A stretch of DNA of 64,000 nucleotides from Chloroflexota bacterium (GTDB lineage: Bacteria; Chloroflexota; Dehalococcoidia; Bin125), in NCBI GenBank assembly GCA_028873865.1, contig JAPPNI010000028.1, positions 14,598 through 78,597 on the forward strand, in the 5' to 3' direction. The notes below the pieces were generated by a model. It ran no database searches. It was not told where the DNA came from and saw nothing but the letters and a program-made list of their open reading frames with translations. The position numbers and the translations under genes were made by a program. Below are positions 2,924-36,482 of this stretch, one piece after another. Numbering within the stretch: the first letter of the stretch is position 1; every line of letters starts with the position of its first letter.

Positions 2924-3706
2924 TTAAATCCCGGCGCCCCAGCCAGAATCGACGAGGAAGCGGTTGAGTTGGCCGTTAAACTCGGTCGCTCGCTCGAAGT
3001 AGACGCTGTGACCCGTCGCTGGCACCTCGTAGTACTGCGAGCCGGGCACGTGCGCATGAGCGGCTCGCATCACGACCGGGGGAATCAGCGGATCGGTGCC
3101 ACCGACCACCCAGAGGATCGGCATCGACAGATTGGCGACGACGTCCGGATCGGGCGCGAGCTCATTCAGCACACCGATCAGGGCCGGGTCGCGCGGAGGA
3201 TTCATCGCCATGATCTCGTCGTACAGGAACGCCAGCGCAGGATCCCGCCTGCGGAGAGACTGGTCATAGGCGAGTGAGCCAAGACCCTGCCCCTCGACAA
3301 GTTTGCGTGCCTGCTCCCACGGTTCCCTGATCGCCTCGGTCATCAGACCGCCGACCGTGTCCGCCATAACCAGCGCGGCAACACGTTCAGGAACCTGGAG
3401 CGCAGCTCCGAGACAGGTCCAACCCCCCATTGACTGGGCGACCAGGGCTGCCCGATCGATCCGAAGCTCATCCATCAGGGCGAGCAGGTCGTCGACGAAC
3501 GCGGCTGGTCCGGGTCCGCCGGTGGGGATGCTGCGTCCCCAGCCGCGATGATCGAAAGCGACGCAGCGATAGGACCCGGCGAATACCGGCACTTGCTGCC
3601 ACCAGGAGAGATGATTCCCGCCGGCGCCGTGGGCGAAGATGATCGCTGGACCGCTGCCCGTTTCCTCGTAGAAGATGTCGCAGTTCGGTCGACTCAGCAA
3701 GGGCAT
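2924..3706 (-). CDS. Alpha/beta-fold hydrolase
   Basis: HGAGG oxyanion loop, DHRGWGRS, nucleophile elbow AQSMGG, catalytic D and H (TGHSVYFE). Confidence 0.9.
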   Translation of the reverse strand: MPLLSRPNCDIFYEETGSGPAIIFAHGAGGNHLSWWQQVPVFAGSYRCVAFDHRGWGRSIPTGGPGPAAFVDDLLALMDELRIDRAALVAQSMGGWTCLGAALQVPERVAALVMADTVGGLMTEAIREPWEQARKLVEGQGLGSLAYDQSLRRRDPALAFLYDEIMAMNPPRDPALIGVLNELAPDPDVVANLSMPILWVVGGTDPLIPPVVMRAAHAHVPGSQYYEVPATGHSVYFERATEFNGQLNRFLVDSGWGAGI

Positions 3707-8249: not shown

Positions 8250-9077
8250 ATGAAACGCTCTCCCAGCGCCGTCCGGCCGCATCGTTCTGCCGAACAGGCC
8301 GACGCCTTTCGCACGCTCTTCCGCCAGCAGGGCGATCGCCTCTGGAACGCCGACCGCGACGTCGACTGGGCCGCCGGCTCTGAGATTCCCGATGCTCGCC
8401 GCGCCGCCTGGCTGCGGATGATGAACGTCTTCCTCGGCCTCGAGGTGATGGGGCTCGACACGATCCAGGTGATGATGAGCCAGGCCACCCACCAGGTCCG
8501 CGATCCGGCGCTGAATCTCTATCTGGCCGCGCAATGCCAGGACGAGGCCCGGCATGTCTACGTGCTGGACCGCTACCTGACCGAGGTCGACGGCCACGGT
8601 TACATCTCGAAACCCGAGGAGTTCCTGATCGAGCGCTTCGGCGGCATGGCCTCCTGGGGCTTGTACCGCGTAGAGAACTGGCTCACCTCCACCCTCTTCA
8701 GCGAGAACTTCGCGGCGCTCTTCCTGCAGCAGGCGCTGGAACTCGACGATGTCGATCCATTGGCCAAGCAGATCTTCCGCCTCATCCTGCGCGACGAGGT
8801 CCGCCACGTGAACTTCCTCCACACCATTCTGCCGCTCCTCATTGACCGCTTGCCCGCGGCCGGTCGCCTGTACGTCTGGCAGAGCCAGCTCCTGCTGGCC
8901 GGAGCCGTCGCCCTCGGCTTGCGCCGGATCAAGGCCGACGTCGCTGCCCTGGGCATCGATGTCGACGTCTACAAGGCCACACTGATCGAGAATCTGGGTG
9001 CCCAATTCGAAGATGCCGGTCTGGACTCGTTCCTCAAGATCGACACCTACGCCAGGGTGATCAACGCAGCCACATGA
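8250..9077 (+). CDS. Ferritin-like diiron protein (AurF/desaturase-like oxygenase family)
   Basis: Diiron ligand pattern E(GLEV)...DEARH...E(SENF)...DEVRH and N-terminal W-N-x-x-x-D-V-D-W. Start is uncertain (in-frame ATGs at 8217, 8223, 8250); the track's 7755 extension overlaps a minus-strand gene. Confidence 0.75.
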   Translation: MKRSPSAVRPHRSAEQADAFRTLFRQQGDRLWNADRDVDWAAGSEIPDARRAAWLRMMNVFLGLEVMGLDTIQVMMSQATHQVRDPALNLYLAAQCQDEARHVYVLDRYLTEVDGHGYISKPEEFLIERFGGMASWGLYRVENWLTSTLFSENFAALFLQQALELDDVDPLAKQIFRLILRDEVRHVNFLHTILPLLIDRLPAAGRLYVWQSQLLLAGAVALGLRRIKADVAALGIDVDVYKATLIENLGAQFEDAGLDSFLKIDTYARVINAAT

Positions 9078-9652
9078 GCACCATCGATGATTGGCGACGC
9101 CTGAGTTCGGAGATCATTGAAGACTTCAGGTTCTTCAGGCTGCGCAAGGACGTCTCGCGTCACCCGACCTCAGGCCGCGACCACCGTTTCTTCATCTTCG
9201 AGTTCCCCGACTGGGTCAACATCATGCCGATCACGTCCGAGCGGGAGGTCGTCTTCGTCAACCAGTTCCGCCACGGCACCCGCGAGCTGACCCTTGAGAT
9301 CCCCGGCGGCATCGTCGACCCGGGCGAGTCGGCGAAGGAAGCGGGACTGAGGGAGATGCTCGAAGAGTCCGGCTACCACGCGCCGGACGCGATCGAACTG
9401 GGCTGGGTGCATCCGAACCCGGCCCTGCAGGAGAACCGCTGCTGGTCGTTCCTGGCCCAGGACGTGTCCCGCGTCATCGACGACGACCACGTAGTTGGCA
9501 CCGGCAGCGAGGCGATCGAGGTGTCGAAGGTGCCGCTCGACGAGATTCCCGGACTGCTCAACGACAAGCTGATCACCCACGCCCTGACGATCGCCGCCTT
9601 CGATCACTACTGGCGCTGGAGCGGCCAGGTCGCCGACCACCGCTCCGGCTGA
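9074..9652 (+). CDS. NUDIX hydrolase (ADP-ribose pyrophosphatase-like)
   Basis: Nudix box GGIVDPGESAKEAGLREMLEESGY; ATGA overlap with the upstream gene. Confidence 0.9.
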   Translation: MSTIDDWRRLSSEIIEDFRFFRLRKDVSRHPTSGRDHRFFIFEFPDWVNIMPITSEREVVFVNQFRHGTRELTLEIPGGIVDPGESAKEAGLREMLEESGYHAPDAIELGWVHPNPALQENRCWSFLAQDVSRVIDDDHVVGTGSEAIEVSKVPLDEIPGLLNDKLITHALTIAAFDHYWRWSGQVADHRSG

Positions 9653-9698
9653 ACCCACTGTCGCCTCCGACACCCACGCTCCGCCAACGACCGCGACA

Positions 9699-9719
9699 GC
9701 ACAATAGTGCGTATACGAT
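9699..9719 (+). promoter_or_regulatory. Degenerate LexA-box-like palindrome GCAC-N4-GTGC plus -10 hexamer TACGAT
   Basis: GCAC-AATA-GTGC-G-TA-TACGAT has the same spacing as the perfect box at 26616-26629. Confidence 0.4.
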
Positions 9720-9810
9720 CGGCTCCGACGACCATCAATCGGCGTCGGAAAGGATCAGAAGTGACCGTCGCCGCCATCCGGACGAATCCTGGAATCACCC
9801 GCCGTCACGC

Positions 9811-9880
9811 AGACAAAATGTGGCCAATTCTGGACAAAACCGGACAAATCTGGACTTTTCCGGACTCATCCGGACCGATG
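9811..9880 (+). repeat. Imperfect tandem 10-bp repeat, ~7 units, consensus YGGACAAATC
   Basis: Units: agacaaaatg tggccaattc tggacaaaac cggacaaatc tggacttttc cggactcatc cggaccgatg. Confidence 0.8.
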
Positions 9881-9934
9881 TCGCGCGAATTCCCAGCCCA
9901 CAGCAGAAGATCGGCCCAATCAGGCCGAAATTTC

Positions 9935-10309
9935 CTACCCCCGCAGCGAATCCACGTCGAAGTCCTCGGGCAGCGGGATGAACAGGCTGCGCCGCGGACC
10001 CTCGATGTCGCGGGTGATATGGCCGCGGCCGGTCACGTCGTCGGCCAGCAGAATGTCGCCGCCATGCAGTTGCAGCCTCGACCCGTCGCCGACCTCAATC
10101 TCGACGGTGCCGCTCAGCGTGACGACGAACTGCCGGCGCGGGGCGTTGTGAAAGTCCAGTTCACCGCCCACCGGCGTCGTGCGGAAGACGATGCCCTCGG
10201 CCTCGAACATCTCGGAGAGGCTGCCGTAACGGCTCTCGGAGAGCGCCACGTCGATCGTCTCGAAGTGCGACTCGCCGTCGTCCCCGGTGTATACGCGTGT
10301 GATTTGCAT
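9935..10309 (-). CDS. Cupin-fold protein (paralog 1)
   Basis: TRVYTGDDGESHF...HNAPRRQ...IEV.DG...D.TG.GH. Confidence 0.8.
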   Translation of the reverse strand: MQITRVYTGDDGESHFETIDVALSESRYGSLSEMFEAEGIVFRTTPVGGELDFHNAPRRQFVVTLSGTVEIEVGDGSRLQLHGGDILLADDVTGRGHITRDIEGPRRSLFIPLPEDFDVDSLRG

Positions 10310-22887: not shown

Positions 22888-23439
22888 CTACTCCTCGGCG
22901 TGCAACGGAAGGTCTGAGCGGTCTGGTTCGAGCGGGCGCCGCATCCAGAGCGCGTCCGGCGCCACGCCATCGGGCCAATCGGTGGAACGAAGCGTCACCG
23001 ACCGAAGCGGCGTGTAGCCCAAGCGTAGCCAGAAGTAGAGCGCCACTCCATTGTCGGGAGGCAGGGGCGTGAGTGCGATCGACGCACCGGCCTCTCGGGC
23101 GGCGCGTTCGAGCAATGGGACAGACGCGCCGCCATAGCCGTAGGCCCGCCAGCGGGCGTCGATGGCCAGCCAGGTCCAGACCGCGGCTTTCGAGGCGACC
23201 GGGCTGTTCAGATCGGCCAACCGGCTGCAGAGCGCTCCGACGACCTGGCCGTCGCCGATGATCCACCAACCCTGGTCACCGTCGTTCAGCCGATCCTGCA
23301 GCCGGCAGGGGTCGGCCCGGCCGGCGATTGCCTGGGCCGCTTCCTCCAACCAGTCGGCCTCGATCGCGTCGCCGTCGAAACGGCGGATCGTGGCTCGATC
23401 GCCTTCGACAACGCTGGGCCAGCGAATCGGACTGCTCAC
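22888..23439 (-). CDS. GNAT-family acetyltransferase
   Basis: Motif A 'LAIDARWRAYGYG' and motif B 'N..AL.FW.RLGY'. Confidence 0.75.
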   Translation of the reverse strand: MSSPIRWPSVVEGDRATIRRFDGDAIEADWLEEAAQAIAGRADPCRLQDRLNDGDQGWWIIGDGQVVGALCSRLADLNSPVASKAAVWTWLAIDARWRAYGYGGASVPLLERAAREAGASIALTPLPPDNGVALYFWLRLGYTPLRSVTLRSTDWPDGVAPDALWMRRPLEPDRSDLPLHAEE

Positions 23440-26210
23440 CTGGATCCGCCGATCGGCGGGAGAAACCCGCGCACGTCCTCGGCGACAGCGCCGAGGGGTT
23501 TGCGGATGACCGGAGCGGGGGGAAGCGCATCGAGAAAGTGTCGTCCGTAGCGGCGATTGACGATGCGTCCGTCGAGGATGACCGCTGCTCCGAGATCGGA
23601 CTGGGTGCGGATCAATCGGCCGATTCCCTGGCGAAACTGGAGCAAGGCGGCCGGCAGGGAAAACTCCATGAACTCATTGTCGTACTGCTCGCCGCGGGCC
23701 TTGAGCACCGGATCGTTCGGAGGCGCGAATGGCAATCTGGTCATGACCAACAGCGACAGCGCATCTCCGGGGATGTCGACGCCGGTCCAGAGCGCCGCAA
23801 CGCCGAAGGCGACCGATTTCGGATCATTGCGCAGCGCCTCGACGACCGAGGCCGCCGAACCGTCACGACCCTGACGCAGCAGCACGAGGCCAGCCGATTC
23901 GAGCTCTTCCCTGATGCGCCTCGTCACCTGATTCATGGCGCTGTAGGAACGGAAGAGGACCATGGTGCGGCCACCGGCGGCGATTGCGAGGGTCTTGATT
24001 GCATTTGCCGCAGACTGATTGTGGTCGTTGCTGTCCGCGTCGAGGATGTCGGTAGGCAGATAGATTCGGCAGCGGCGCTCGTAATCGAACGGGGAGCCGT
24101 ATTGCGATTCGGCCGCGTCTTCGATTCCCAGGCGCTCGCGCAGGTACTCGAAGGTTGAGCTCTCCTGGGCGCTGGTCGCCAGGGTCGCACCGGTGAGGAT
24201 GGCTGCATGGCGTTCGTTCCAGAGCGGCTGCAGGTGCGAGGCGACGCTGAGCGGGGCGGCGTGAAGGGTTGCGGCACCGCTGCGGCGATTCTCTCTGGCC
24301 ACCCAGGCGATCTCGTCGCTGGAGTATTCGGTGACTGCCCGGGCAAGGTGGCGTCCTCGCTCGGTCAGATCGCCGAGGACGATCTGCGCTTCGCCGATCA
24401 ATGACTGCAGGTCCCGCTCGTCGTCGGCGTGAGCGTCCGCCGCCTTCGCGGCGCATTCCCGCGCCAGATCGTCTATCGCCTCCGTCAACTGGCCCAGGTG
24501 CGCCTGGGTATCCTCCCAGGTGAGTTCGAGTTCCGACCACGCCCTTGTGCCGCGCGCGCCCTGGGTCAGGGGCACACGGTCCTCGTTGCCTCGCTGATCC
24601 TCTGAGTACTCGGAGGCGAAGGCGGCGATCTGGTCGAACAGCTCCTGCAGTGACTTCTCAGATTGCGCGGCTCGCTGCTTGAGCAGGCCGGATTCGGTTG
24701 CGAAGCCTCGTTTCTCGGCCTGGGCGGCGAGCGAGCCGGAGCCCTCGGCACCGCGCCGTACCGACTCCAGCATCCAGGACTCGTTCATTTCCAACGAGAG
24801 TTGTCCGGTTGCGACGTCTTCCAGCGCGTGGGACTCGTCGATGATGACCACCGCGGCGTCGGGCAGGGTGACGGCGCCGCTGGTGAGCGACCGGACGAGC
24901 AGGGCATGGTTGGCGATTATGACGTGGGAGCTTGCGGCCTGGCGCTGGACCCTGAGCAGGAAACAGGTGCCGTTCATCGCGTATTCGCAGTTTCGGTCGG
25001 AGAGGCAGGCGGTGTCTCTGGCCGAGAGCTTCTCCCATGAACGCTGCATGGGCGACGCCAGCCTGAGCTCCGCCCGATCGCCGCGCTCCGTGGACGAACG
25101 CCAGACGGCGGCTCGGGCGAGCAGCAGCGGGTCTTCCCAATCGGCCGCTCGCCTCAGTTCGTGGTCGACCTTCTCCTGGCAGAGGTAGTTGTCACGGCCC
25201 TTGACGACGGTTGATCTGAGTTCTTCGGCGGCCCGCTCGGAGACGCCTCGGATCAGCTGGCGGGCGATCTCGATGTCCTGGTGCTCGAGTTGTTGCTGCA
25301 GGTTGATCGTGTGGGTGCTGACGACGACCGGGTTGCCGGTCTTGAGCGCCCACAGGGCGGCCGGGACGAGGTAGGCCAATGACTTTCCGGTACCGGTGCC
25401 GGCCTCGACGATCAGCGTGCCTCCGTGCTGCAGCGCTTCGGCGACGTCGCGGGCCATGTCGAGCTGTTCGGTTCGCTCTTCGAACGATTCTTCAGACATG
25501 GTGGCGAAGGCTCGGGCGGTCAGCTCGGCCAGCGAGCCTGCGGGAAGCTCAACCGGCTCGAGCGGTCGGTTCGGCTCTCGTCGTTTCTCTCGGTCGGCTA
25601 AAAGCGTCCGAGGCGTTTCCAGCGCCCATTCGCGCAGCACTCGGCCCGGGCCCCAGAAGAGGTTGCCCGTGCTGGCCACCTCACTCAATGCGTCGCGGGC
25701 GCTCACGGGCAGCTCTTCGAAGCGATTCCTGAGGCCGAGGAAGACCGCGCGGGCCGCTTCCGCGTCGGCCAGGGCTCGGTGGCCGCCCTGGAGATCCACG
25801 CCGTAGCGCCGGCAGAGATCTCCGAGTCGATGAGAGTCGGCGGCGGGATCGATGATCTGGGCGAGCGGCAGAGTGTCAATCGATGGCGTCGAGGAGACGA
25901 AGCCGTGGATTTCGAGGAATTTCTCGTCGAACTGGACGTTGTGGCCGATCAGGGTTGCGCCGTCCAAGAGGCTTCGAACCTGCTCTTCGATATCGGACCA
26001 CTGCGGGGCATCGGCGAGCATGTCGGGGGTGATGCCGGTCATGCGTTGCACGCGCAGGGGGGGCATCTCCAACGGACGCACGAGGGAACTCCAGCGCTCG
26101 AGGACGCGTTCGGGAGTGCAGCGAACGATGCCGACTTCGATGATTTCGTCGAAGCCGGGTTTGAGACCCGTCATTTCCAGGTCGATGGCGGCGTAGATCT
26201 GGTCGGTCAC
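23436..26210 (-). CDS. dinG: DEDDh 3'-5' exonuclease-DinG helicase fusion
   Basis: Exonuclease motifs IDLEMTG, GHNVQFD, HRALADA; helicase motifs EAGTGTGKS, IIDESH, TGATL, GVDIPG, QGIGRLIR. Confidence 0.93.
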   Translation of the reverse strand: MTDQIYAAIDLEMTGLKPGFDEIIEVGIVRCTPERVLERWSSLVRPLEMPPLRVQRMTGITPDMLADAPQWSDIEEQVRSLLDGATLIGHNVQFDEKFLEIHGFVSSTPSIDTLPLAQIIDPAADSHRLGDLCRRYGVDLQGGHRALADAEAARAVFLGLRNRFEELPVSARDALSEVASTGNLFWGPGRVLREWALETPRTLLADREKRREPNRPLEPVELPAGSLAELTARAFATMSEESFEERTEQLDMARDVAEALQHGGTLIVEAGTGTGKSLAYLVPAALWALKTGNPVVVSTHTINLQQQLEHQDIEIARQLIRGVSERAAEELRSTVVKGRDNYLCQEKVDHELRRAADWEDPLLLARAAVWRSSTERGDRAELRLASPMQRSWEKLSARDTACLSDRNCEYAMNGTCFLLRVQRQAASSHVIIANHALLVRSLTSGAVTLPDAAVVIIDESHALEDVATGQLSLEMNESWMLESVRRGAEGSGSLAAQAEKRGFATESGLLKQRAAQSEKSLQELFDQIAAFASEYSEDQRGNEDRVPLTQGARGTRAWSELELTWEDTQAHLGQLTEAIDDLARECAAKAADAHADDERDLQSLIGEAQIVLGDLTERGRHLARAVTEYSSDEIAWVARENRRSGAATLHAAPLSVASHLQPLWNERHAAILTGATLATSAQESSTFEYLRERLGIEDAAESQYGSPFDYERRCRIYLPTDILDADSNDHNQSAANAIKTLAIAAGGRTMVLFRSYSAMNQVTRRIREELESAGLVLLRQGRDGSAASVVEALRNDPKSVAFGVAALWTGVDIPGDALSLLVMTRLPFAPPNDPVLKARGEQYDNEFMEFSLPAALLQFRQGIGRLIRTQSDLGAAVILDGRIVNRRYGRHFLDALPPAPVIRKPLGAVAEDVRGFLPPIGGSR

Positions 26211-26366
26211 GCCTCACTCACGCCTCATGGAGGAACACGGCGGCGGCGAGCCAGGGCCGATTCAGGATTTGCGGCATCCGCTTTCAGGTTTCAGGTGAAT
26301 TTCTTTTCTGTAGGCGGTCGGCGCGCTGATCTCCTGTGTTTTGCTGGAGATCGTGGCGGAAACGCA

Positions 26367-26402
26367 TTCAGGTTTTTTCAGGTTCTTTCAGCTTTTTTCA
26401 GC
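26367..26402 (-). repeat. Second 10-bp tandem repeat, ~3.5 units (plus strand TTCAGSTTYT)
   Basis: ttcaggtttt ttcaggttct ttcagctttt ttcagc; scattered TTCAGG copies also at 26261-26296. Confidence 0.7.
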
Positions 26403-26420
26403 CGGGAGGACGGCTGCGCT

Positions 26421-26510
26421 GTTCGGTCCTGTTCGATTTTGTACGGATTTGTTCGGATTTGTACGGATTTCGATGGTGTTTGTACGGTATTTGACCGGGT
26501 TTGACCGGCT
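26421..26510 (-). repeat. Imperfect tandem 10-bp repeat, ~9 units, minus-strand consensus CGWACAAATC
   Basis: Plus-strand units: gttcggtcct gttcgatttt gtacggattt gttcggattt gtacggattt cgatggtgttt gtacggtattt gaccgggttt gaccggct. Confidence 0.85.
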
Positions 26511-26607
26511 GCGAACGGGGTTGTCCGACGAGGGTTCCGGGGTGTCGTTGAAGTTGCCGGGACGGTCATCAGCCACGCCATCGGTTTGGACCACGGTCGC
26601 TGCGGCC

Positions 26608-26629
26608 ATCATACACGAACATCGGTTCG
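26608..26629 (-). promoter_or_regulatory. LexA (SOS) box of Gram-positive/Chloroflexota type abutting a -10 hexamer
   Basis: Minus strand CGAAC-CGAT-GTTCG-TG-TATGAT; perfect CGAAC-N4-GTTCG at 26616-26629. Confidence 0.7.
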
Positions 26630-26700
26630 CTGGGGATCTCTCGTCAGTGTTCTGCGCTACCGATGTCCGAACCGGGCTGAACGGGCCTGCCTACCCCTGC

Positions 26701-27417
26701 CTACGACACCTCTTCGTCGGCGCATGGGCCGAAGGGACGGAACTCGCCGATGTTGAGACCCTCGTAGCAGACCGTTGCGCCGTCGTGCAGGAGCTGGACG
26801 GTCTGCTCGCGACAGGTCAGCGGCTCGGGGAAGACGGTGGTGTAGCTGCCGATGCCCGATGTCGAGTGGGCGTCGGAGCCGCCCGTGACGGGCTTGCCGA
26901 GGATCCGGGCGACTTCCAACGCGAACAGGTTCTCGCGCCGGGTGTTGCCACCGTTGCCGACCTCGATGCCGTGCACGACCTGGAAGACGTGCATGCGCTC
27001 GGCCGCTTCATCCGGGGTCATCGAGAACGGTTCCTCGCCTCGGCGACGGAAGGTGACAGGATCGAAGAAGTGTCGGAAGGGGTGCGCGACCGACATGAAT
27101 GCGCCGATCTCGTCGCAGACTTCGCGGAGTCGCTCGGCCGAGCGGATGCCGGAGTAGTACTGGTCGATTCCGAAGACGACGATGTGGCCGAGATCGGTGG
27201 AGACTTCCATGCCCTGGTTGAGGTAGATGCCGGCCTCGTTCATGGCTTCGCTGTAGTTGTTCCAGTCGTAGCGTTCCCAGACGCGGTCGTGCTCGGTCAG
27301 GTTGACTCCGGTGAGGCCGATTCGGTTGGCCTCTTCGAGCAGCTCGTCGGGCTGCAGCGCGGAATCGGCGGCGCCGCGAACGGTATGAATGTGGGCATCC
27401 AGGATCGTGCCGGGCAT
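26701..27417 (-). CDS. PHP-domain metal-dependent phosphoesterase
   Basis: DAHIHT, TEHD, GMEVST, GHI, AHPF, GGSDAH. ATG at 27417; the track's 27750 start overlaps the next gene. Confidence 0.88.
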   Translation of the reverse strand: MPGTILDAHIHTVRGAADSALQPDELLEEANRIGLTGVNLTEHDRVWERYDWNNYSEAMNEAGIYLNQGMEVSTDLGHIVVFGIDQYYSGIRSAERLREVCDEIGAFMSVAHPFRHFFDPVTFRRRGEEPFSMTPDEAAERMHVFQVVHGIEVGNGGNTRRENLFALEVARILGKPVTGGSDAHSTSGIGSYTTVFPEPLTCREQTVQLLHDGATVCYEGLNIGEFRPFGPCADEEVS

Positions 27418-27515
27418 CGACTGAGGATCCACGGGGTCTCCAGCTCCAGGGGCGGTGGGGTTGCTCCACTGAGTATAGGCACGGGTGGGGATAATCCTGT
27501 GCCATGCAGTTGCCG

Positions 27516-27935
27516 TCAGCCGGTGGCGAGGTGGGGCAGCATCCAGCCGTAGCAGCCCGCGGCGAGCAGGGCGGTCAGTGTGAATCGTCGCCAGAGCCAG
27601 GGCTGCCAGGCCGTCGCGCCGCCCGCGAGCAGAGCCAGGGCGAGGATGATGCCGAGCGTGAACTGCCAGGAGGGGCTGCCGAGTCCGGAGGAACCGCCGT
27701 CGGCGACATTGAGGAAGACGACGCCGAGCAGCAGTCCGAGGACGGCGCAACCGGCCTGGGCGACCAAGGCCGCGCCGAGGCTGACCATGACCCAGTTGGA
27801 GGGGTCGGGAAACTGCCGGCGGAGCCAGTTGGTGGTCGGGACCGAGACGAGCAGCGGCCCGAAGATTCCCAGTCCAAAGACTCCAACGGCGGCGCCGGAG
27901 ACGAAGCCCGAGAACAGCGCCGCGACGGTTTCCAT
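27516..27935 (-). CDS. Hypothetical membrane protein (~4 TM helices)
   Basis: Hydrophobic ORF starting METVAALF immediately after the ispE stop. Confidence 0.65.
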   Translation of the reverse strand: METVAALFSGFVSGAAVGVFGLGIFGPLLVSVPTTNWLRRQFPDPSNWVMVSLGAALVAQAGCAVLGLLLGVVFLNVADGGSSGLGSPSWQFTLGIILALALLAGGATAWQPWLWRRFTLTALLAAGCYGWMLPHLATG

Positions 27936-29752: not shown

Positions 29753-30022
29753 TGGTCGTGCACCTGAGGTCGAACGCCGCCATGAGCTTGCCTTCGCTAG
29801 CCGGCTCTGCCCAGGCACTCCCACGTCACCCGACCGAACAACCGCTTACCGCTGCTTCCTCTCGGACCTGACGGGGTTCACGGCGGGCCGCCGCGCGGGA
29901 CCCAAGCTTCATCACTGCTTGGCGTCGGTAGTTCTCATGTCGCCGCCCTCAACTCAGGAGTTCAACCCCGCTAGAGCGGATTGCGGGTACAGGGCACCGC
30001 TAGCTCCCCATCTAGCACGACC
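29753..30022 (-). ncRNA. ffs: Signal recognition particle RNA, large bacterial type (with Alu domain)
   Basis: 5' GGUCGUGCUAGAUGGGGAG.UAGCGGUGCCCUGUACCCGCAAUCCGC; S-domain GAACCCCGUCAGGUCCGAGAGGAAGCAGCGGUAAG; the 5' and 3' ends pair (GGUCGUGC/GCACGACC). Ends are approximate. Confidence 0.93.
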
Positions 30023-35819: not shown

Positions 35820-35904
35820 TGGTGGGGAAGAGGAGACTCGAACTCCTACGCCTTGCGGCACATGATCCTAAATCATGCTCGTCTGCCAATTCCGACACTT
35901 CCCC
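35820..35904 (-). tRNA. tRNA-Leu(UAG)
   Basis: GGGGAAG acceptor stem, anticodon arm CAUGA-UUUAGGA-UCAUG, long variable arm, UUCGA T-loop, CCA; 85 nt. Confidence 0.97.
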
Positions 35905-35987
35905 CCTGGACGACGAGAAGGCCGGAGCACCGGCGTCGTCGCGCGAGAGGCGCGGAATCATAGGCAGACCGCTCAGACTGTCGAAGC

Positions 35988-36063
<76 letters not shown>

Positions 36064-36318
36064 CCGCTCGTGAACGGCTCCCGAGGCCGATGGCTTCGGG
36101 ACGTCACACAATCTTACACCGCCCCCACGACTTCCGCCCTGGACGCTACTGCTGCTCATCGGCTGTTCGCCAGAGAGAACGCTATTCAGTTGTTCCACTA
36201 CAGCTCCGGTCGGGTTTGGCCTGCAAGCTAGCCAACAGGACGCAGAACGTCAACGAGTTGACACGATTGTAGATGCAAGAGCGAGTCATTTCAGGGCGCT
36301 CGTCAGCGGCCGGCTTCG

Positions 36319-36348
36319 TTGACCAAGCTCAACCGCGAGGAATACGAT
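36319..36348 (+). promoter_or_regulatory. Sigma70-type promoter for tRNA-Val/thrS
   Basis: TTGACC-N18-TACGAT. Confidence 0.55.
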
Positions 36349-36405
36349 GAATCGACAACTGATTGGTTGCGGGCCTGGTCCCGTAGCTGGCCAGGAAGCT
36401 GGCGG

Positions 36406-36482
36406 GGGCGGTTAGCTCAGTTGGCTAGAGCGCTGCGTTGACATCGCAGAGGTCACTGGTTCAAGTCCAGTATCGCCCACCA
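36406..36482 (+). tRNA. tRNA-Val(GAC)
   Basis: GGGCGGU acceptor stem, CUGCG-UUGACAU-CGCAG anticodon arm, GGUUCAA, CCA; 77 nt. Confidence 0.97.

What the first reader, a model, noticed from the sequence alone, without database searches (positions are those of the whole stretch)
26260..26629. Dispersed element family: SOS-box promoter + RTG-ACC-GTC start + 10-bp tandem repeat (two copies in this window)
Seen: two intergenic regions share the same ordered parts. Copy B (minus strand): GAAC-CGAT-GTTC-G-TG-TATGAT, then 38 nt, then ATG ACC GTC CCG GCA ACT (26569, MTVPAT), about 60 nt, then ~9 x CGWACAAATC. Copy A (plus strand): GCAC-AATA-GTGC-G-TA-TACGAT (9699-9719), then 41 nt, then GTG ACC GTC GCC GCC ATC (9761, MTVAAI, SD AAAGGA), 50-60 nt, then ~7 x YGGACAAATC. 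Both sit 46-71 nt after the stop of a co-oriented, unrelated gene (Nudix; PHP). Known: GAAC-N4-GTTC is the LexA operator of Firmicutes, Actinobacteria and Dehalococcoides. Inference: these are diverged members of one family, either a damage-inducible small RNA/mini-protein cassette or a non-autonomous mobile unit. It matches no element class I recognise (no terminal inverted repeats, transposase or spacers).
Basis: partly seen in the sequence, partly recalled or inferred. Interest (0 to 1): 0.82.

Follow-up and report, generated by a model that had tools for sequence, protein, structure and literature searches.

The report
Dispersed SOS-box promoter–leader cassette family
The two sites are real members of an undescribed family of about 250-420 bp non-coding cassettes, found in roughly 1-12 copies per genome in one clade of uncultured Dehalococcoidia, that probably hand a DNA-damage-controlled promoter and leader to whatever gene lies downstream (here the repair helicase gene dinG).

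Summary
A profile built only from copies in other genomes hits the window at exactly two places: copy B (26631-26266, minus strand, E=4e-57) and copy A (9698-9854, plus strand, E=1e-3).

About 80 further copies were found, all in Dehalococcoidia/Chloroflexota MAGs. Exact-core counts range from 0 to 12 per genome, and none was found on viral contigs.

Both window sites are presence/absence polymorphic. In most relatives PHP and dinG are about 29 nt apart, and the Nudix and cupin stop codons abut.

The shared anatomy, in order:
- a GAAC-N4-GTTC-type palindrome in fixed register with a -10 hexamer;
- a GAAAG-type ribosome site and an ATG 36-42 nt after the -10;
- a short ORF whose peptide is not conserved;
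- array 1, of CGAACAAAT-type 10-mers;
- array 2, of CCTGAAAAAA-type 10-mers that give stops in all frames;
- a near-invariant 27-nt imperfect palindrome;
- an A-run and two more array-2 words.

In 79% of copies a co-oriented gene follows within about 10-80 nt of the tail. These include uvrB, dinG, two glycosylases and many metabolic genes.

My best reading is a portable LexA-type promoter plus translated leader, possibly acting with Rho. Regulation and the mode of spread are untested. It matches no known element class.

The parts
26617..26628 (-). Copy B: perfect GAAC-N4-GTTC palindrome (GAACCGATGTTC), the operator-like box of the head module
   Evidence: The same box sits 3 nt upstream of a TAnnnT hexamer in 30 family copies, and 2 nt downstream of it in 9 more. 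In orthologous copies the half-sites are kept while the N4 spacer varies (CGAT/CAAT/TAAT).
26608..26613 (-). Copy B: -10-like hexamer TATGAT; no -35 element
   Evidence: the sigma-70 consensus scan finds no full promoter. Family consensus is TAcgAT.
26378..26569 (-). Copy B: leader ORF, from ATG 26569 to TGA 26380-26378 (63 codons). It runs through array 1 and stops on the TGA ladder of array 2. The peptide is not conserved.
   Evidence: One search lists the 67-aa ORF 26378..26581, which opens at an in-frame ATG four codons upstream; the 63-codon ORF from ATG 26569 is. ATG lies 36-42 nt after the -10 in 27 of 41 headed copies. A GAAAG-type ribosome site is present in 24 of 33 copies against 9 of 99 control windows. 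Codon-position substitutions are 49:50:48.
26417..26530 (-). Copy B: array 1, about 10 units of the 10-mer CCG(T/A/G)(A/T)CAAAT, without stop codons
   Evidence: Family word is CGAACA(A/G)AAT. Indels between orthologous copies are 10 or 20 nt.
26365..26401 (-). Copy B: array 2, four units of CTGAA(A/G)AA(A/G)C. Each holds a TGA, so the 10-nt register closes all three frames.
   Evidence: 26367-26401, period 10, 88% matches. Leader ORFs of the family end 37/38, 47/48 or 56/58 nt before the core.
26328..26353 (-). Copy B: core, the imperfect palindrome CGATCTCCAGCAAAACACAGGAGATC
   Evidence: Column counts over 98 copies. Predicted as a hairpin in the RNA fold. It is the most conserved block of the family.
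26281..26309 (-). Copy B: A-run (AGAAAAGAAA) and tail (CACCTGAAACCTGAAAG, two more array-2 words). The profile match ends at 26266.
   Evidence: Tail words always match the array-2 word of the same copy.
23436..26210 (-). Downstream co-oriented gene: exonuclease-DinG helicase (924 aa)
   Evidence: Pfam RNase_T, DEAD_2 and Helicase_C_2. In 12 of 17 orthologous loci it starts about 29 nt after the PHP gene with no cassette.
9699..9719 (+). Copy A: head, palindrome GCACAATAGTGC + GTA + TACGAT
   Evidence: Aligned to the family head by nhmmer.
9747..9763 (+). Copy A: GGAAAGGA ribosome site and GTG start, 41 nt after the -10
9810..9879 (+). Copy A: a single array of seven 10-mers (CTGGACAAAA type); no CCTGAAAAAA array
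   Evidence: The same CTGGAC word occurs in L239 (orthologous site) and L231:1081-1110.
9884..9934 (+). Copy A: variant core CGCGAATTCCCAGCCCACAGCAGAAGATCGG and a short tail, ending at the cupin stop codon (CTA 9935-9937)
   Evidence: Related variant cores occur in L239 and L231. Not detected by the core profile.

Best explanation
Both sites are members of an old, lineage-restricted family of non-coding intergenic cassettes of about 250-420 bp. Each cassette is a small transcription unit.

1. A promoter is overlapped by a GAAC-N4-GTTC-type operator. I infer that LexA binds it, so transcription is damage-inducible.
2. A 5' untranslated stretch of roughly 30 nt (inferred from the 36-42 nt between -10 and ATG; the transcription start was not mapped) leads to a ribosome site and an ATG. 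This opens a short leader ORF. I infer it is translated only for the act of translation, because its peptide is free to vary.
3. The ribosome runs over an A/C-rich, G-poor array of 10-nt words. It is released on a second array whose words put a stop codon in every frame.
4. A conserved 27-nt imperfect palindrome, an A-run and two more words follow.
5. A host gene usually starts 10-80 nt further on, in the same direction.

The cassette therefore works as a portable 5' regulatory region. At copy B it splits dinG from the upstream housekeeping operon and gives it its own operator-controlled promoter.

The C>G, regularly spaced-C arrays followed by a hairpin look like a Rho loading site plus a pause site. 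I therefore propose that read-through into the downstream gene is gated by leader translation, as in a Rho-dependent attenuator.

Copy A is a diverged subfamily member stranded between convergent genes, with nothing downstream to regulate.

Shown: the family, its anatomy, the insertion polymorphism, the orientation bias and the lack of coding constraint. Inferred: LexA control, translation of the leader, the involvement of Rho and any benefit to the host.
For: Family and anatomy:
- About 80 copies share the same ordered modules.
- A profile built without the window finds B (E=4e-57) and A (E=1e-3) and nothing else in 64 kb.

Operator and promoter:
- The palindrome lies in one of two rigid registers with TAnnnT: 3 nt upstream (30 copies) or 2 nt downstream (9 copies).
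- Half-sites are kept and the spacer varies among orthologous copies.
- GAAC-N4-GTTC is the LexA motif of B. subtilis and M. tuberculosis (PMC3323433).
- Twelve of 21 perfect boxes in 860 kb of this clade's DNA lie in cassette heads.

Leader:
- ATG lies 36-42 nt after the -10 in 27 of 41 headed copies.
- A GAAAG-type ribosome site is present in 24 of 33 copies against 9 of 99 control windows.
- ORFs end on a 10-nt ladder inside array 2.
- Codon-position substitutions are 49:50:48 and indels are 10 or 20 nt.

rut-like arrays:
- Array composition is A32 C35 G20 T13, against A19 C34 G30 T17 in the background.
- The best 78-nt C/G ratio has a median of 2.67, against a background 99th percentile of 2.35.
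- YC dimers show autocorrelation peaks at 10 and 20 nt.
- RhoTermPredict-type criteria (PMC6407284) are met by 70 of 81 copies on the sense strand, 1 of 81 on the antisense strand and 30% of random segments.
- The RNA is otherwise unstructured (z=-1.3).

Regulatory position:
- The downstream gene is co-oriented in 61 of 77 copies and starts about 90-160 nt after the core.
- The same cassette-gene pairs recur across species.
- Downstream genes include uvrB, dinG, an HhH-GPD glycosylase, UDG and thymidylate kinase, among about 40 families.

Insertion polymorphism:
- The dinG site is empty in 12 of 17 relatives.
- The Nudix/cupin site is empty in most of 43 relatives and filled in 4 genomes, counting the window itself.

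Age and constraint:
- Paralogues are 67-83% identical, yet the core is nearly invariant.
Against: - No lexA or recA of this clade was retrieved, so the motif's owner is not verified.
- No -35 element is present.
- Most downstream genes are metabolic or housekeeping (esterase, CoA-transferase, Ffh, GluRS, pyrophosphatase), which is unusual for an SOS regulon.
- About half of the copies have no recognisable head, and some have none at all (L173, L192).
- Sixteen of 77 copies face a convergent gene; copy A is in the same situation, though it was not among the 77 counted.
- The rut criterion is also met by 30% of random segments. The spacing of C residues is 10 nt, not 11-13. No rho gene of this clade was found in the held DNA.
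- Every word keeps a fixed G and a specific sequence, which a purely compositional rut site would not need.
- The near-invariant core is not explained by a simple pause hairpin. Its 5' arm carries systematic mismatches, and three copies have the loop inverted.
- Outside the core, the cassette diverges about as fast as third codon positions.
Confidence: 0.5

Rival explanations
1. A selfish, non-autonomous mobile element (MITE- or BOX-like) with no host function. The promoter, ribosome site and arrays would be relics of a parent element, and copies persist because they are tolerated in intergenic DNA.
For: - Presence/absence polymorphism at both window sites.
- Exact-core copy number ranges from 0 to 12 among related genomes.
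- The anatomy is modular and mosaic. Different head types sit on the same body at one orthologous locus, and headless copies exist.
- The number of repeat units is variable.
- Copies co-occur with other small repeats, and the Nudix/cupin spacer is an insertion hot spot.
- Outside the core, divergence is close to that of third codon positions.
Against: - No terminal inverted repeats, no clear target-site duplication, no transposase nearby and no viral copies.
- Paralogues are old (67-83% identity) and sit at orthologous positions across species. Even so, the operator register, start codon, stop ladder and core remain intact.
- There is a strong orientation and position bias relative to the downstream gene (61 of 77).
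Confidence: 0.22
2. A DNA-level protein-binding platform. The 10-bp-phased words are direct repeats of the operator half-site (CGAACA, TGAAA/C) and are bound cooperatively by LexA or another repressor. This would form a roadblock or decoy between the upstream operon and the downstream gene. The core palindrome would be a second operator or a recombination site.
For: - Array-1 words equal the half-site of the head box, including its variants: GTAC, GCAC and GGAC mirror the right-half variants GTAC, GTGC and GTCC.
- The period is exactly 10 bp with phased A-tracts.
- The G is fixed in every word.
- The core tolerates inversion of its loop, as a double-stranded DNA site would.
- The core lies in a fixed phase with array 2 (6-7 mod 10).
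Against: - The words differ strongly between copies within one genome (CCTGAAA, CTGACCA, CTGAACA, CTGGACA).
- Array 1 and array 2 are not in a constant phase with each other.
- There is no within-copy match between the box variant and the array word (copies A and B).
- The strict strand asymmetry (A/C-rich sense strand, stop ladder, start codon) is not needed for a double-stranded DNA site.
Confidence: 0.13
3. A damage-induced non-coding RNA that acts in trans as a sponge for an RNA-binding protein such as Rho, Hfq or a CsrA-like factor, using the repeated single-stranded words.
For: - The RNA is unstructured, A/C-rich and carries 8-14 repeated motifs.
- About a dozen copies per genome could be induced together from similar promoters.
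- Copies with no gene to regulate, such as copy A, are still maintained across three genomes.
Against: - No terminator defines a discrete RNA.
- The motif sequence varies between copies.
- GGA motifs occur only in the A-type subfamily.
- The conserved start codon, ribosome site and stop ladder point to translation in cis.
- The position bias next to downstream genes also argues for a cis role.
Confidence: 0.08
4. A family of SOS-induced small-protein or toxin genes (type I toxin-antitoxin-like, or a division inhibitor).
For: - The promoter, ribosome site and ATG are conserved, and the ORFs are 25-67 codons long.
- Because the repeat is 10 nt, any frame yields the same 10-residue periodic peptide (RTKSNKIEQN type) and the same KKPEKT* end.
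Against: - Substitutions fall evenly on the three codon positions, and indels shift the frame by 10 or 20 nt.
- Of all frames in this T-poor region, 62% are open anyway.
- The peptides are hydrophilic, of low complexity and without a shared N-terminus.
- No NCBIfam match was found.
Confidence: 0.04

Closest known systems
Putative mobile promoters and promoter-carrying small repeats such as Correia, ERIC and REPIN (Nijveen, Matus-Garcia and van Passel 2012, PMC3575422)
   Same: Similar non-coding sequence sits directly upstream of unrelated genes within a genome and across species. It carries a promoter, has no transposase of its own and can rewire the regulation of the neighbouring gene.
   Different: - No terminal inverted repeats.
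- An operator-overlapped promoter, a translated leader and two 10-nt arrays are built in.
- Copies are old and diverged (67-83% identity). The published criterion of at least 80% identity over 50 nt is met by only 12 of 66 and 10 of 45 same-genome pairs, and by none in the strict -150..-50 window.
LexA (Cheo-box) controlled promoters of Firmicutes and Actinobacteria, GAAC-N4-GTTC (PMC3323433). The same motif has been reported for Dehalococcoides; that statement is from my own memory and was not retrieved here.
   Same: The same palindrome overlaps or abuts the -10. It occurs upstream of the classical SOS genes uvrB and dinG.
   Different: Here the operator-promoter is part of a repeated cassette that also precedes many metabolic genes. 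Many copies have degenerate right half-sites (GTCC, GTGC). LexA binding is untested.
Leader-peptide, Rho-dependent attenuators such as tnaC-tnaA, mgtL and corL (own knowledge), and the generic Rho-terminator architecture used by RhoTermPredict (PMC6407284)
   Same: A short upstream ORF whose product does not matter, followed by unstructured RNA with C>G and regularly spaced C residues, and then by a hairpin, ahead of the regulated gene.
   Different: - The rut-like region is a true tandem repeat with a 10-nt period, not 11-13 nt.
- It lies largely inside the leader ORF.
- It ends in a stop ladder covering all three frames.
- The cassette is multi-copy.
Pneumococcal BOX elements, boxA-(boxB)n-boxC (own knowledge)
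   Same: A modular intergenic repeat with a variable number of internal tandem units and no typical transposon ends. Copies lie next to genes and can affect their expression.
   Different: The tandem units are 45 bp in BOX and 10 bp here. BOX forms stable RNA structures, whereas this cassette is unstructured apart from one hairpin. BOX has no operator or leader. No sequence similarity was tested.
MITEs
   Same: Small, non-coding, multi-copy, intergenic and insertion-polymorphic.
   Different: No terminal inverted repeats, no clear target-site duplication and no related autonomous element were found.

Membership tests
LexA/SOS-box regulated promoter | GAAC-N4-GTTC palindrome | tested here: met
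   Copy B is perfect. Copy A is GCAC-N4-GTGC, a symmetric variant. Thirty-six of 81 copies have GAAC-N4-GNNC in register with a -10; with the relaxed first half-site G[ATC]AC the count is 41. Twelve perfect boxes lie in heads.
LexA/SOS-box regulated promoter | Operator overlaps or abuts the core promoter | tested here: met
   Two fixed registers relative to TAnnnT: box + 3 nt + hexamer, or hexamer + 2 nt + box. No -35 element.
LexA/SOS-box regulated promoter | The genome encodes LexA, and lexA and recA carry the same box | not tested
   tblastn with E. coli LexA and RecA found no such gene in the window or in about 1 Mb of held clade DNA.
LexA/SOS-box regulated promoter | LexA binding and damage induction | not testable with these tools
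   Needs EMSA and expression data.
MITE | Terminal inverted repeats | tested here: not met
   Only short, imperfect internal pairs were found, and none joins the two ends.
MITE | Target-site duplication | tested here: inconclusive
   Weak direct repeats of about 14 nt (9-10 of 14 matching) flank the L002 and L010 inserts. Nothing is discernible at the Nudix/cupin site, where the ancestral spacer is 0-2 nt.
MITE | Small, non-coding, multi-copy, insertion-polymorphic | tested here: met
Putative mobile promoter (PMC3575422) | At least 80% identity over at least 50 nt upstream of non-paralogous genes in one genome | tested here: inconclusive
   Zero of 45 and 0 of 21 pairs qualify in the strict -150..-50 window. 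Over the whole cassette, 12 of 66 and 10 of 45 pairs qualify, and nearly all pairs align at 67-83%.
Rho-dependent terminator/attenuator (RhoTermPredict criteria, PMC6407284) | A 78-nt window with C/G > 1 and regularly spaced C residues | tested here: met
   Seventy-nine of 81 copies qualify. C/G is at least 2 in 70 of 81 on the sense strand, 1 of 81 on the antisense strand and 30% of random segments. The period is 10 nt.
Rho-dependent terminator/attenuator (RhoTermPredict criteria, PMC6407284) | A hairpin pause site within 150 nt downstream | tested here: met
   The core palindrome (arms of up to 11 bp, 5-nt loop) starts about 15-45 nt after array 2.
Rho-dependent terminator/attenuator (RhoTermPredict criteria, PMC6407284) | Rho present and termination observed | not tested
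   No rho gene of this clade was found in the held loci. No transcript data are available.
Small-protein / type I toxin gene | Purifying selection on the peptide; a hydrophobic helix | tested here: not met
   Codon positions 49:50:48 and frame-shifting indels. The peptides are hydrophilic and rich in P, T, R, N and Q. No NCBIfam hit.
Any Rfam RNA family | Covariance-model match | tested here: not met
   Nothing at gathering thresholds. Only chance-level hits with E>3 in permissive mode.

The most novel reading that the evidence does not exclude
The cassette is a self-contained, copyable 'SOS switch' with three linked parts. A LexA-repressed promoter provides damage control. A translated but sequence-free leader runs over a synthetic-looking Rho loading array. 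A stop ladder in all three frames sets where ribosomes leave the RNA. Read-through into the host gene would then depend on both DNA damage and the state of translation. By being copied in front of a dozen or so genes per genome, the cassette would have built much of this clade's damage regulon and split operons such as PHP-dinG. A stronger variant of this reading is that the co-induced array RNAs titrate Rho, or the array DNA titrates LexA, genome-wide.
Probability: 0.18. Interest if true: 0.85.

Novelty: new variant of a known kind. Interest (0 to 1): 0.62.

Why it matters
If the reading is right, a whole stress regulon in an abundant but uncultured bacterial clade was assembled by copying one ready-made regulatory cassette, not by evolving operators one gene at a time. 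This clade includes sponge-associated and environmental Dehalococcoidia.

It would also offer a natural, compact example of three control layers packed into about 300 bp: repressor control, leader translation and (probably) factor-dependent termination. The 10-nt repeat design makes the peptide and the stop signal independent of reading frame.

Even under the minimal reading, it is a new family of small dispersed repeats. The family has a clear profile and can be used to annotate these genomes, to mark strain-level variation and to explain otherwise puzzling long intergenic gaps.

Tried and rejected
- **Known RNA families.** Rfam gave nothing for either site at gathering thresholds and only chance-level hits in permissive mode.
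- **Global RNA structure.** z = -1.3 for both copies. A second hairpin between the core and the A-run looked plausible by eye but is not enriched over shuffles (mean z +0.3). An alifold consensus gave nothing.
- **Protein coding.** No Pfam hit for either ORF across copy B at the default E <= 0.001, and no NCBIfam hit for six leader peptides at E <= 1. The codon-position test was negative. ORF length is uninformative because 62% of frames are open in this T-poor sequence.
- **Phage or virus origin.** The only hit in viral contigs is a chance match in a 35% GC phage.
- **Transposon ends.** No terminal inverted repeats. Target duplications are unclear.
- **Replication origin or DnaA boxes.** Rejected because the element is absent from the same locus in most relatives and has many copies spread round the chromosome.
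- **CsrA-type GGA sponge.** GGA motifs occur only in the A-type words.
- **Other 10-11-bp-phased direct-repeat operators.** I considered CtsR-type heptads (GGTCAAA-N3-GGTCAAA does occur in copy B, 26505-26489), PhoB/OmpR boxes and GlnR boxes. They remain analogies only, because the words differ too much between copies.
- **An outward promoter in the core or tail (CACGAT as -10, TGAAAC as -35).** The spacings do not fit.
- **First pattern scan.** A gapped pattern fixed this.
- **lexA, recA and rho.** Searched for in the held DNA; none was found.
- **Literature.** Searches for the core sequence, for Dehalococcoides LexA and for REP13E12 with LexA found nothing in the held library.
Full report
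**1. The observation**

- On the minus strand of copy B, the box GAACCGATGTTC (26628-26617) is followed after 3 nt by TATGAT (26613-26608).
- After 38 more nt comes ATG ACC GTC (26569), and then about ten CCGWACAAAT units (26530-26417).
- On the plus strand of copy A, GCACAATAGTGC (9699-9710) is followed after 3 nt by TACGAT.
- After 41 more nt comes GTG ACC GTC (9761), preceded by GGAAAGGA, and then seven YYGGACNNNN units (9810-9879).

The flanking genes are as described:
- Copy A lies between Nudix (9074-9652, +) and a convergent cupin gene (9935-10309, -).
- Copy B lies between a PHP-domain gene (26701-27750, -) and an exonuclease-DinG helicase gene (23436-26210, -).

A single GAAC-N4-GTTC in 64 kb is what chance gives. 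The combination is not chance.
- The relaxed pattern GNAC-N4-GNNC-N2-3-TAnnnT occurs only at these two places on either strand.
- The decamer is enriched, and 7 of its 15 matches lie inside the two arrays.

**2. A real, dispersed family**

I fetched 17 orthologous dinG loci from Dehalococcoidia MAGs.
- In 12 of them PHP and dinG are about 29 nt apart.
- In four of them (L002, L007, L010, L017), as in the window, a roughly 450-bp insert with the same ordered blocks fills the gap.

A gapped pattern (core plus A-run) then gave 102 stretches without hitting a limit, about 80 of them true copies, all in Dehalococcoidia/Chloroflexota MAGs.

Exact-core copies per genome vary widely:
- 12 in OZ241962.1, spread over the whole chromosome;
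- 11 in jk18x34bins.13;
- 7 each in IRC3_bin_11, S18_105 and jk18x25bins.9;
- 0 in several close relatives.

Further points on distribution:
- In 422 kb of loci that were not chosen for the element, the profile finds it only at the two anchor sites, plus one decayed copy. The density is therefore tens per genome, not hundreds.
- A full-length nhmmer profile built from 25 non-window copies hits the window twice only: copy B (26631-26266, E=4.3e-57) and copy A (9698-9854, head plus array, E=1.2e-3).
- Viral contigs hold only a chance match.

**3. Copy A**

At the Nudix/cupin site the two stop codons abut or overlap in most of 43 relatives.
- The site is filled by a family member in four genomes: the window, L238, L239 and L240.
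- L239 and a paralogue in L231 share copy A's CTGGAC word and its variant core (..TCCAGCCCACAGCAG..). Copy A therefore belongs to a diverged subfamily and is not simply a wreck.
- L239 and L240 carry the operator downstream of the -10, whereas the window copy carries it upstream. The heads are exchangeable modules.

**4. Anatomy**

*Head.*
- In 30 copies the consensus is a.AGAAC.cATGT.C-gta-TAcgAT.
- In 9 copies it is GC-TAynaT-CA-GAACA.atG..C.
- The registers are rigid.
- Orthologous copies keep the half-sites and vary the spacer.
- No -35 element is present. A small 'cAC' is conserved 33-36 nt upstream of the -10.

*Leader.*
- ATGs are rare in this sequence, yet they pile up 36-42 nt after the -10 (27 of 41 headed copies).
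- A cGAAAGc-type ribosome site lies 8-13 nt upstream of the start in 24 of 33 copies, against 9 of 99 control windows.

*Array 1.*
- It consists of 3-10 units of CGAACA(A/G)AAT-like 10-mers without stop codons.

*Array 2.*
- It consists of 2-5 units of CCTGAAAAAA. In some copies the word is CTGACCAAAC, CTGAACAAAC or CTAACCA.
- Every word holds TGA or TAA, so the 10-nt register closes all three frames.
- The leader ORFs end 37/38, 47/48 or 56/58 nt before the core, typically as ..KKPEKT*.

*Core.*
- The sequence is CGATCYCCNGYAAAACACTGGAGATCG.
- The right arm and loop are almost invariant.
- The left arm has C opposite A at two positions in about half of the copies.
- In three copies the loop is inverted relative to the flanks.

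*3' end.*
- After 12-35 variable nt come an A-run of 6-9 and two more words.
- These words always match the array-2 word of the same copy.

**5. Coding or not**

- Among orthologous copies, substitutions inside the leader ORF fall 49:50:48 on the three codon positions.
- All indels are 10 or 20 nt.
- Of all frames in this T-poor region, 62% are open.
- The peptides share only composition.
- No protein family matches.

The peptide is therefore not under selection, although the start signals are conserved. This is the signature of a regulatory upstream ORF, not of a mini-protein gene.

**6. RNA or DNA**

- Neither copy folds better than shuffles (z=-1.3).
- Rfam finds nothing.
- The spacer after the core has no conserved hairpin.

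The arrays have a distinctive composition on the sense strand:
- They are A32 C35 G20 T13, against A19 C34 G30 T17 in the background.
- The best 78-nt C/G ratio has a median of 2.67, above the background 99th percentile of 2.35.
- YC dimers recur every 10 nt.

RhoTermPredict describes a Rho terminator as a 78-nt window with C>G and regularly spaced C residues, followed within 150 nt by a hairpin (PMC6407284). By that description:
- 70 of 81 copies qualify at C/G of at least 2 on the sense strand;
- 1 of 81 qualifies on the antisense strand;
- 30% of random segments also qualify, so the criterion is permissive.

On the other hand, every word keeps a fixed G. Array-1 words equal the operator half-site (CGAACA). 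LexA proteins that bind direct GTTC repeats are known (PMC3323433). A DNA-level role for the arrays is therefore not excluded.

**7. Context and age**

- The next gene downstream is co-oriented in 61 of 77 copies and starts about 90-160 nt after the core, which is 10-80 nt after the tail.
- The same cassette-gene pairs recur in different species.

The downstream genes fall into two groups:
- DNA-related: uvrB, dinG, an HhH-GPD glycosylase, a uracil-DNA glycosylase and thymidylate kinase.
- Metabolic or housekeeping: an esterase, CaiB-type CoA-transferase, carboxyltransferase, rhomboid, luciferase-like oxidoreductases, Ffh, GluRS, a pyrophosphatase and transporters.

On age and constraint:
- Within a genome nearly all copies align, but at only 67-83% identity.
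- Between species the cassette as a whole diverges about as fast as third codon positions, while the core, words and head signals persist.

The family is therefore old and mostly inherited in place, with occasional gain, loss and module exchange. The retained signals look selected.

**8. Interpretation**

The best-supported model is a portable 5' regulatory cassette. It combines an operator-controlled (probably LexA) promoter, a leader translated for its own sake, an array on which ribosomes are released in any frame, and a hairpin ahead of the host gene.

At copy B it separates dinG from the SRP-RNA/GHMP-kinase/PHP operon and gives it its own promoter. Gating of read-through by Rho and leader translation is my preferred mechanism for the 3' half, but it rests on sequence features alone.

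Rivals, with their evidence, are given separately:
- a purely selfish repeat;
- a DNA-level repressor platform;
- a trans-acting sponge RNA;
- a small-protein gene (disfavoured).

**9. Comparison with known systems**

The cassette works like a mobile promoter (PMC3575422) joined to a leader-peptide attenuator, and its head looks like a Gram-positive SOS promoter (PMC3323433). It is not a member of several classes:
- MITEs, because it has no terminal inverted repeats;
- any Rfam family;
- any protein family.

It meets the published mobile-promoter similarity threshold only in part. I found no description of it in the held literature.

**10. What remains unexplained**

- The matching of tail words to array-2 words across 90 nt.
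- The fixed G in every word.
- The mechanism of spread.
- The owner of the operator motif in this clade.

Noticed in passing
L152, L139, L166, L231, L069 and others (upstream of cassette heads); window 37731: A REP-like hairpin repeat, GGTCCCCTCTCCC-N3-5-GGGAGAGGGTTAGGGTGAGGGCC, lies within about 370 nt upstream of 12 of 81 cassette copies. About 2.6 would be expected from its overall density. One half-motif occurs in the window.
   Followed up: partly
L245, L248-L250, L267, L271, L273, L278 (about 3080-3350); L276, L277: The Nudix/cupin spacer is an insertion hot spot. Other relatives carry an unrelated long inverted-repeat element there (GTAGGGGCGACCCTTGTGGTCGCCC ... GGGCGACCACAAGGGTCGCCCCTAC) or tandem GTCATTCCTGCGCAGGCAGGAACC units.
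   Followed up: no
L237, L242, L243 and others, about 3076-3080: In relatives without an insert, the Nudix and cupin genes end on overlapping stop codons on opposite strands (..GCTAG.. or ..GTTAG..).
   Followed up: no
window 26686-26704 and 26207-26227: Copy B is bracketed by two small tandem duplications. CCTGCCTACC x1.9 includes the PHP stop codon, and TCACGCCTCAC x1.9 includes the dinG GTG start. Relatives have single units.
   Followed up: no
L001:340-521 (minus strand): A decayed headed copy (TAGTAT-GT-GAACTTAAGTTC plus array remnants; nhmmer E=3e-4) lies about 110 nt from the SRP RNA gene and points away from it.
   Followed up: partly
L019, L029, L034 (core positions given): In 3 of 81 copies the loop of the core palindrome is inverted relative to the rest of the cassette (GTTTT instead of AAAAC). 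This is the kind of hairpin-mediated flip known from other repeat-rich DNA.
   Followed up: partly
window 29756-30020 (-); 35820-36482; 63494-65: There is a bacterial large SRP RNA gene just upstream of the PHP/dinG operon, and four tRNA genes (Leu, Lys, Val, Arg).
   Followed up: no
window, whole: Cumulative GC skew has a minimum near 21 kb and a maximum near 43 kb. This probably reflects switches of gene strand. RNase III and SMC genes lie at 16.4-20.5 kb.
   Followed up: no
window 26505-26489 (minus strand): Two array-1 units read GGTCAAA-CCC-GGTCAAA, which is identical in form to the CtsR operator of Firmicutes (heptad direct repeat). Other copies use different words, so this is probably a coincidence.
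   Followed up: no
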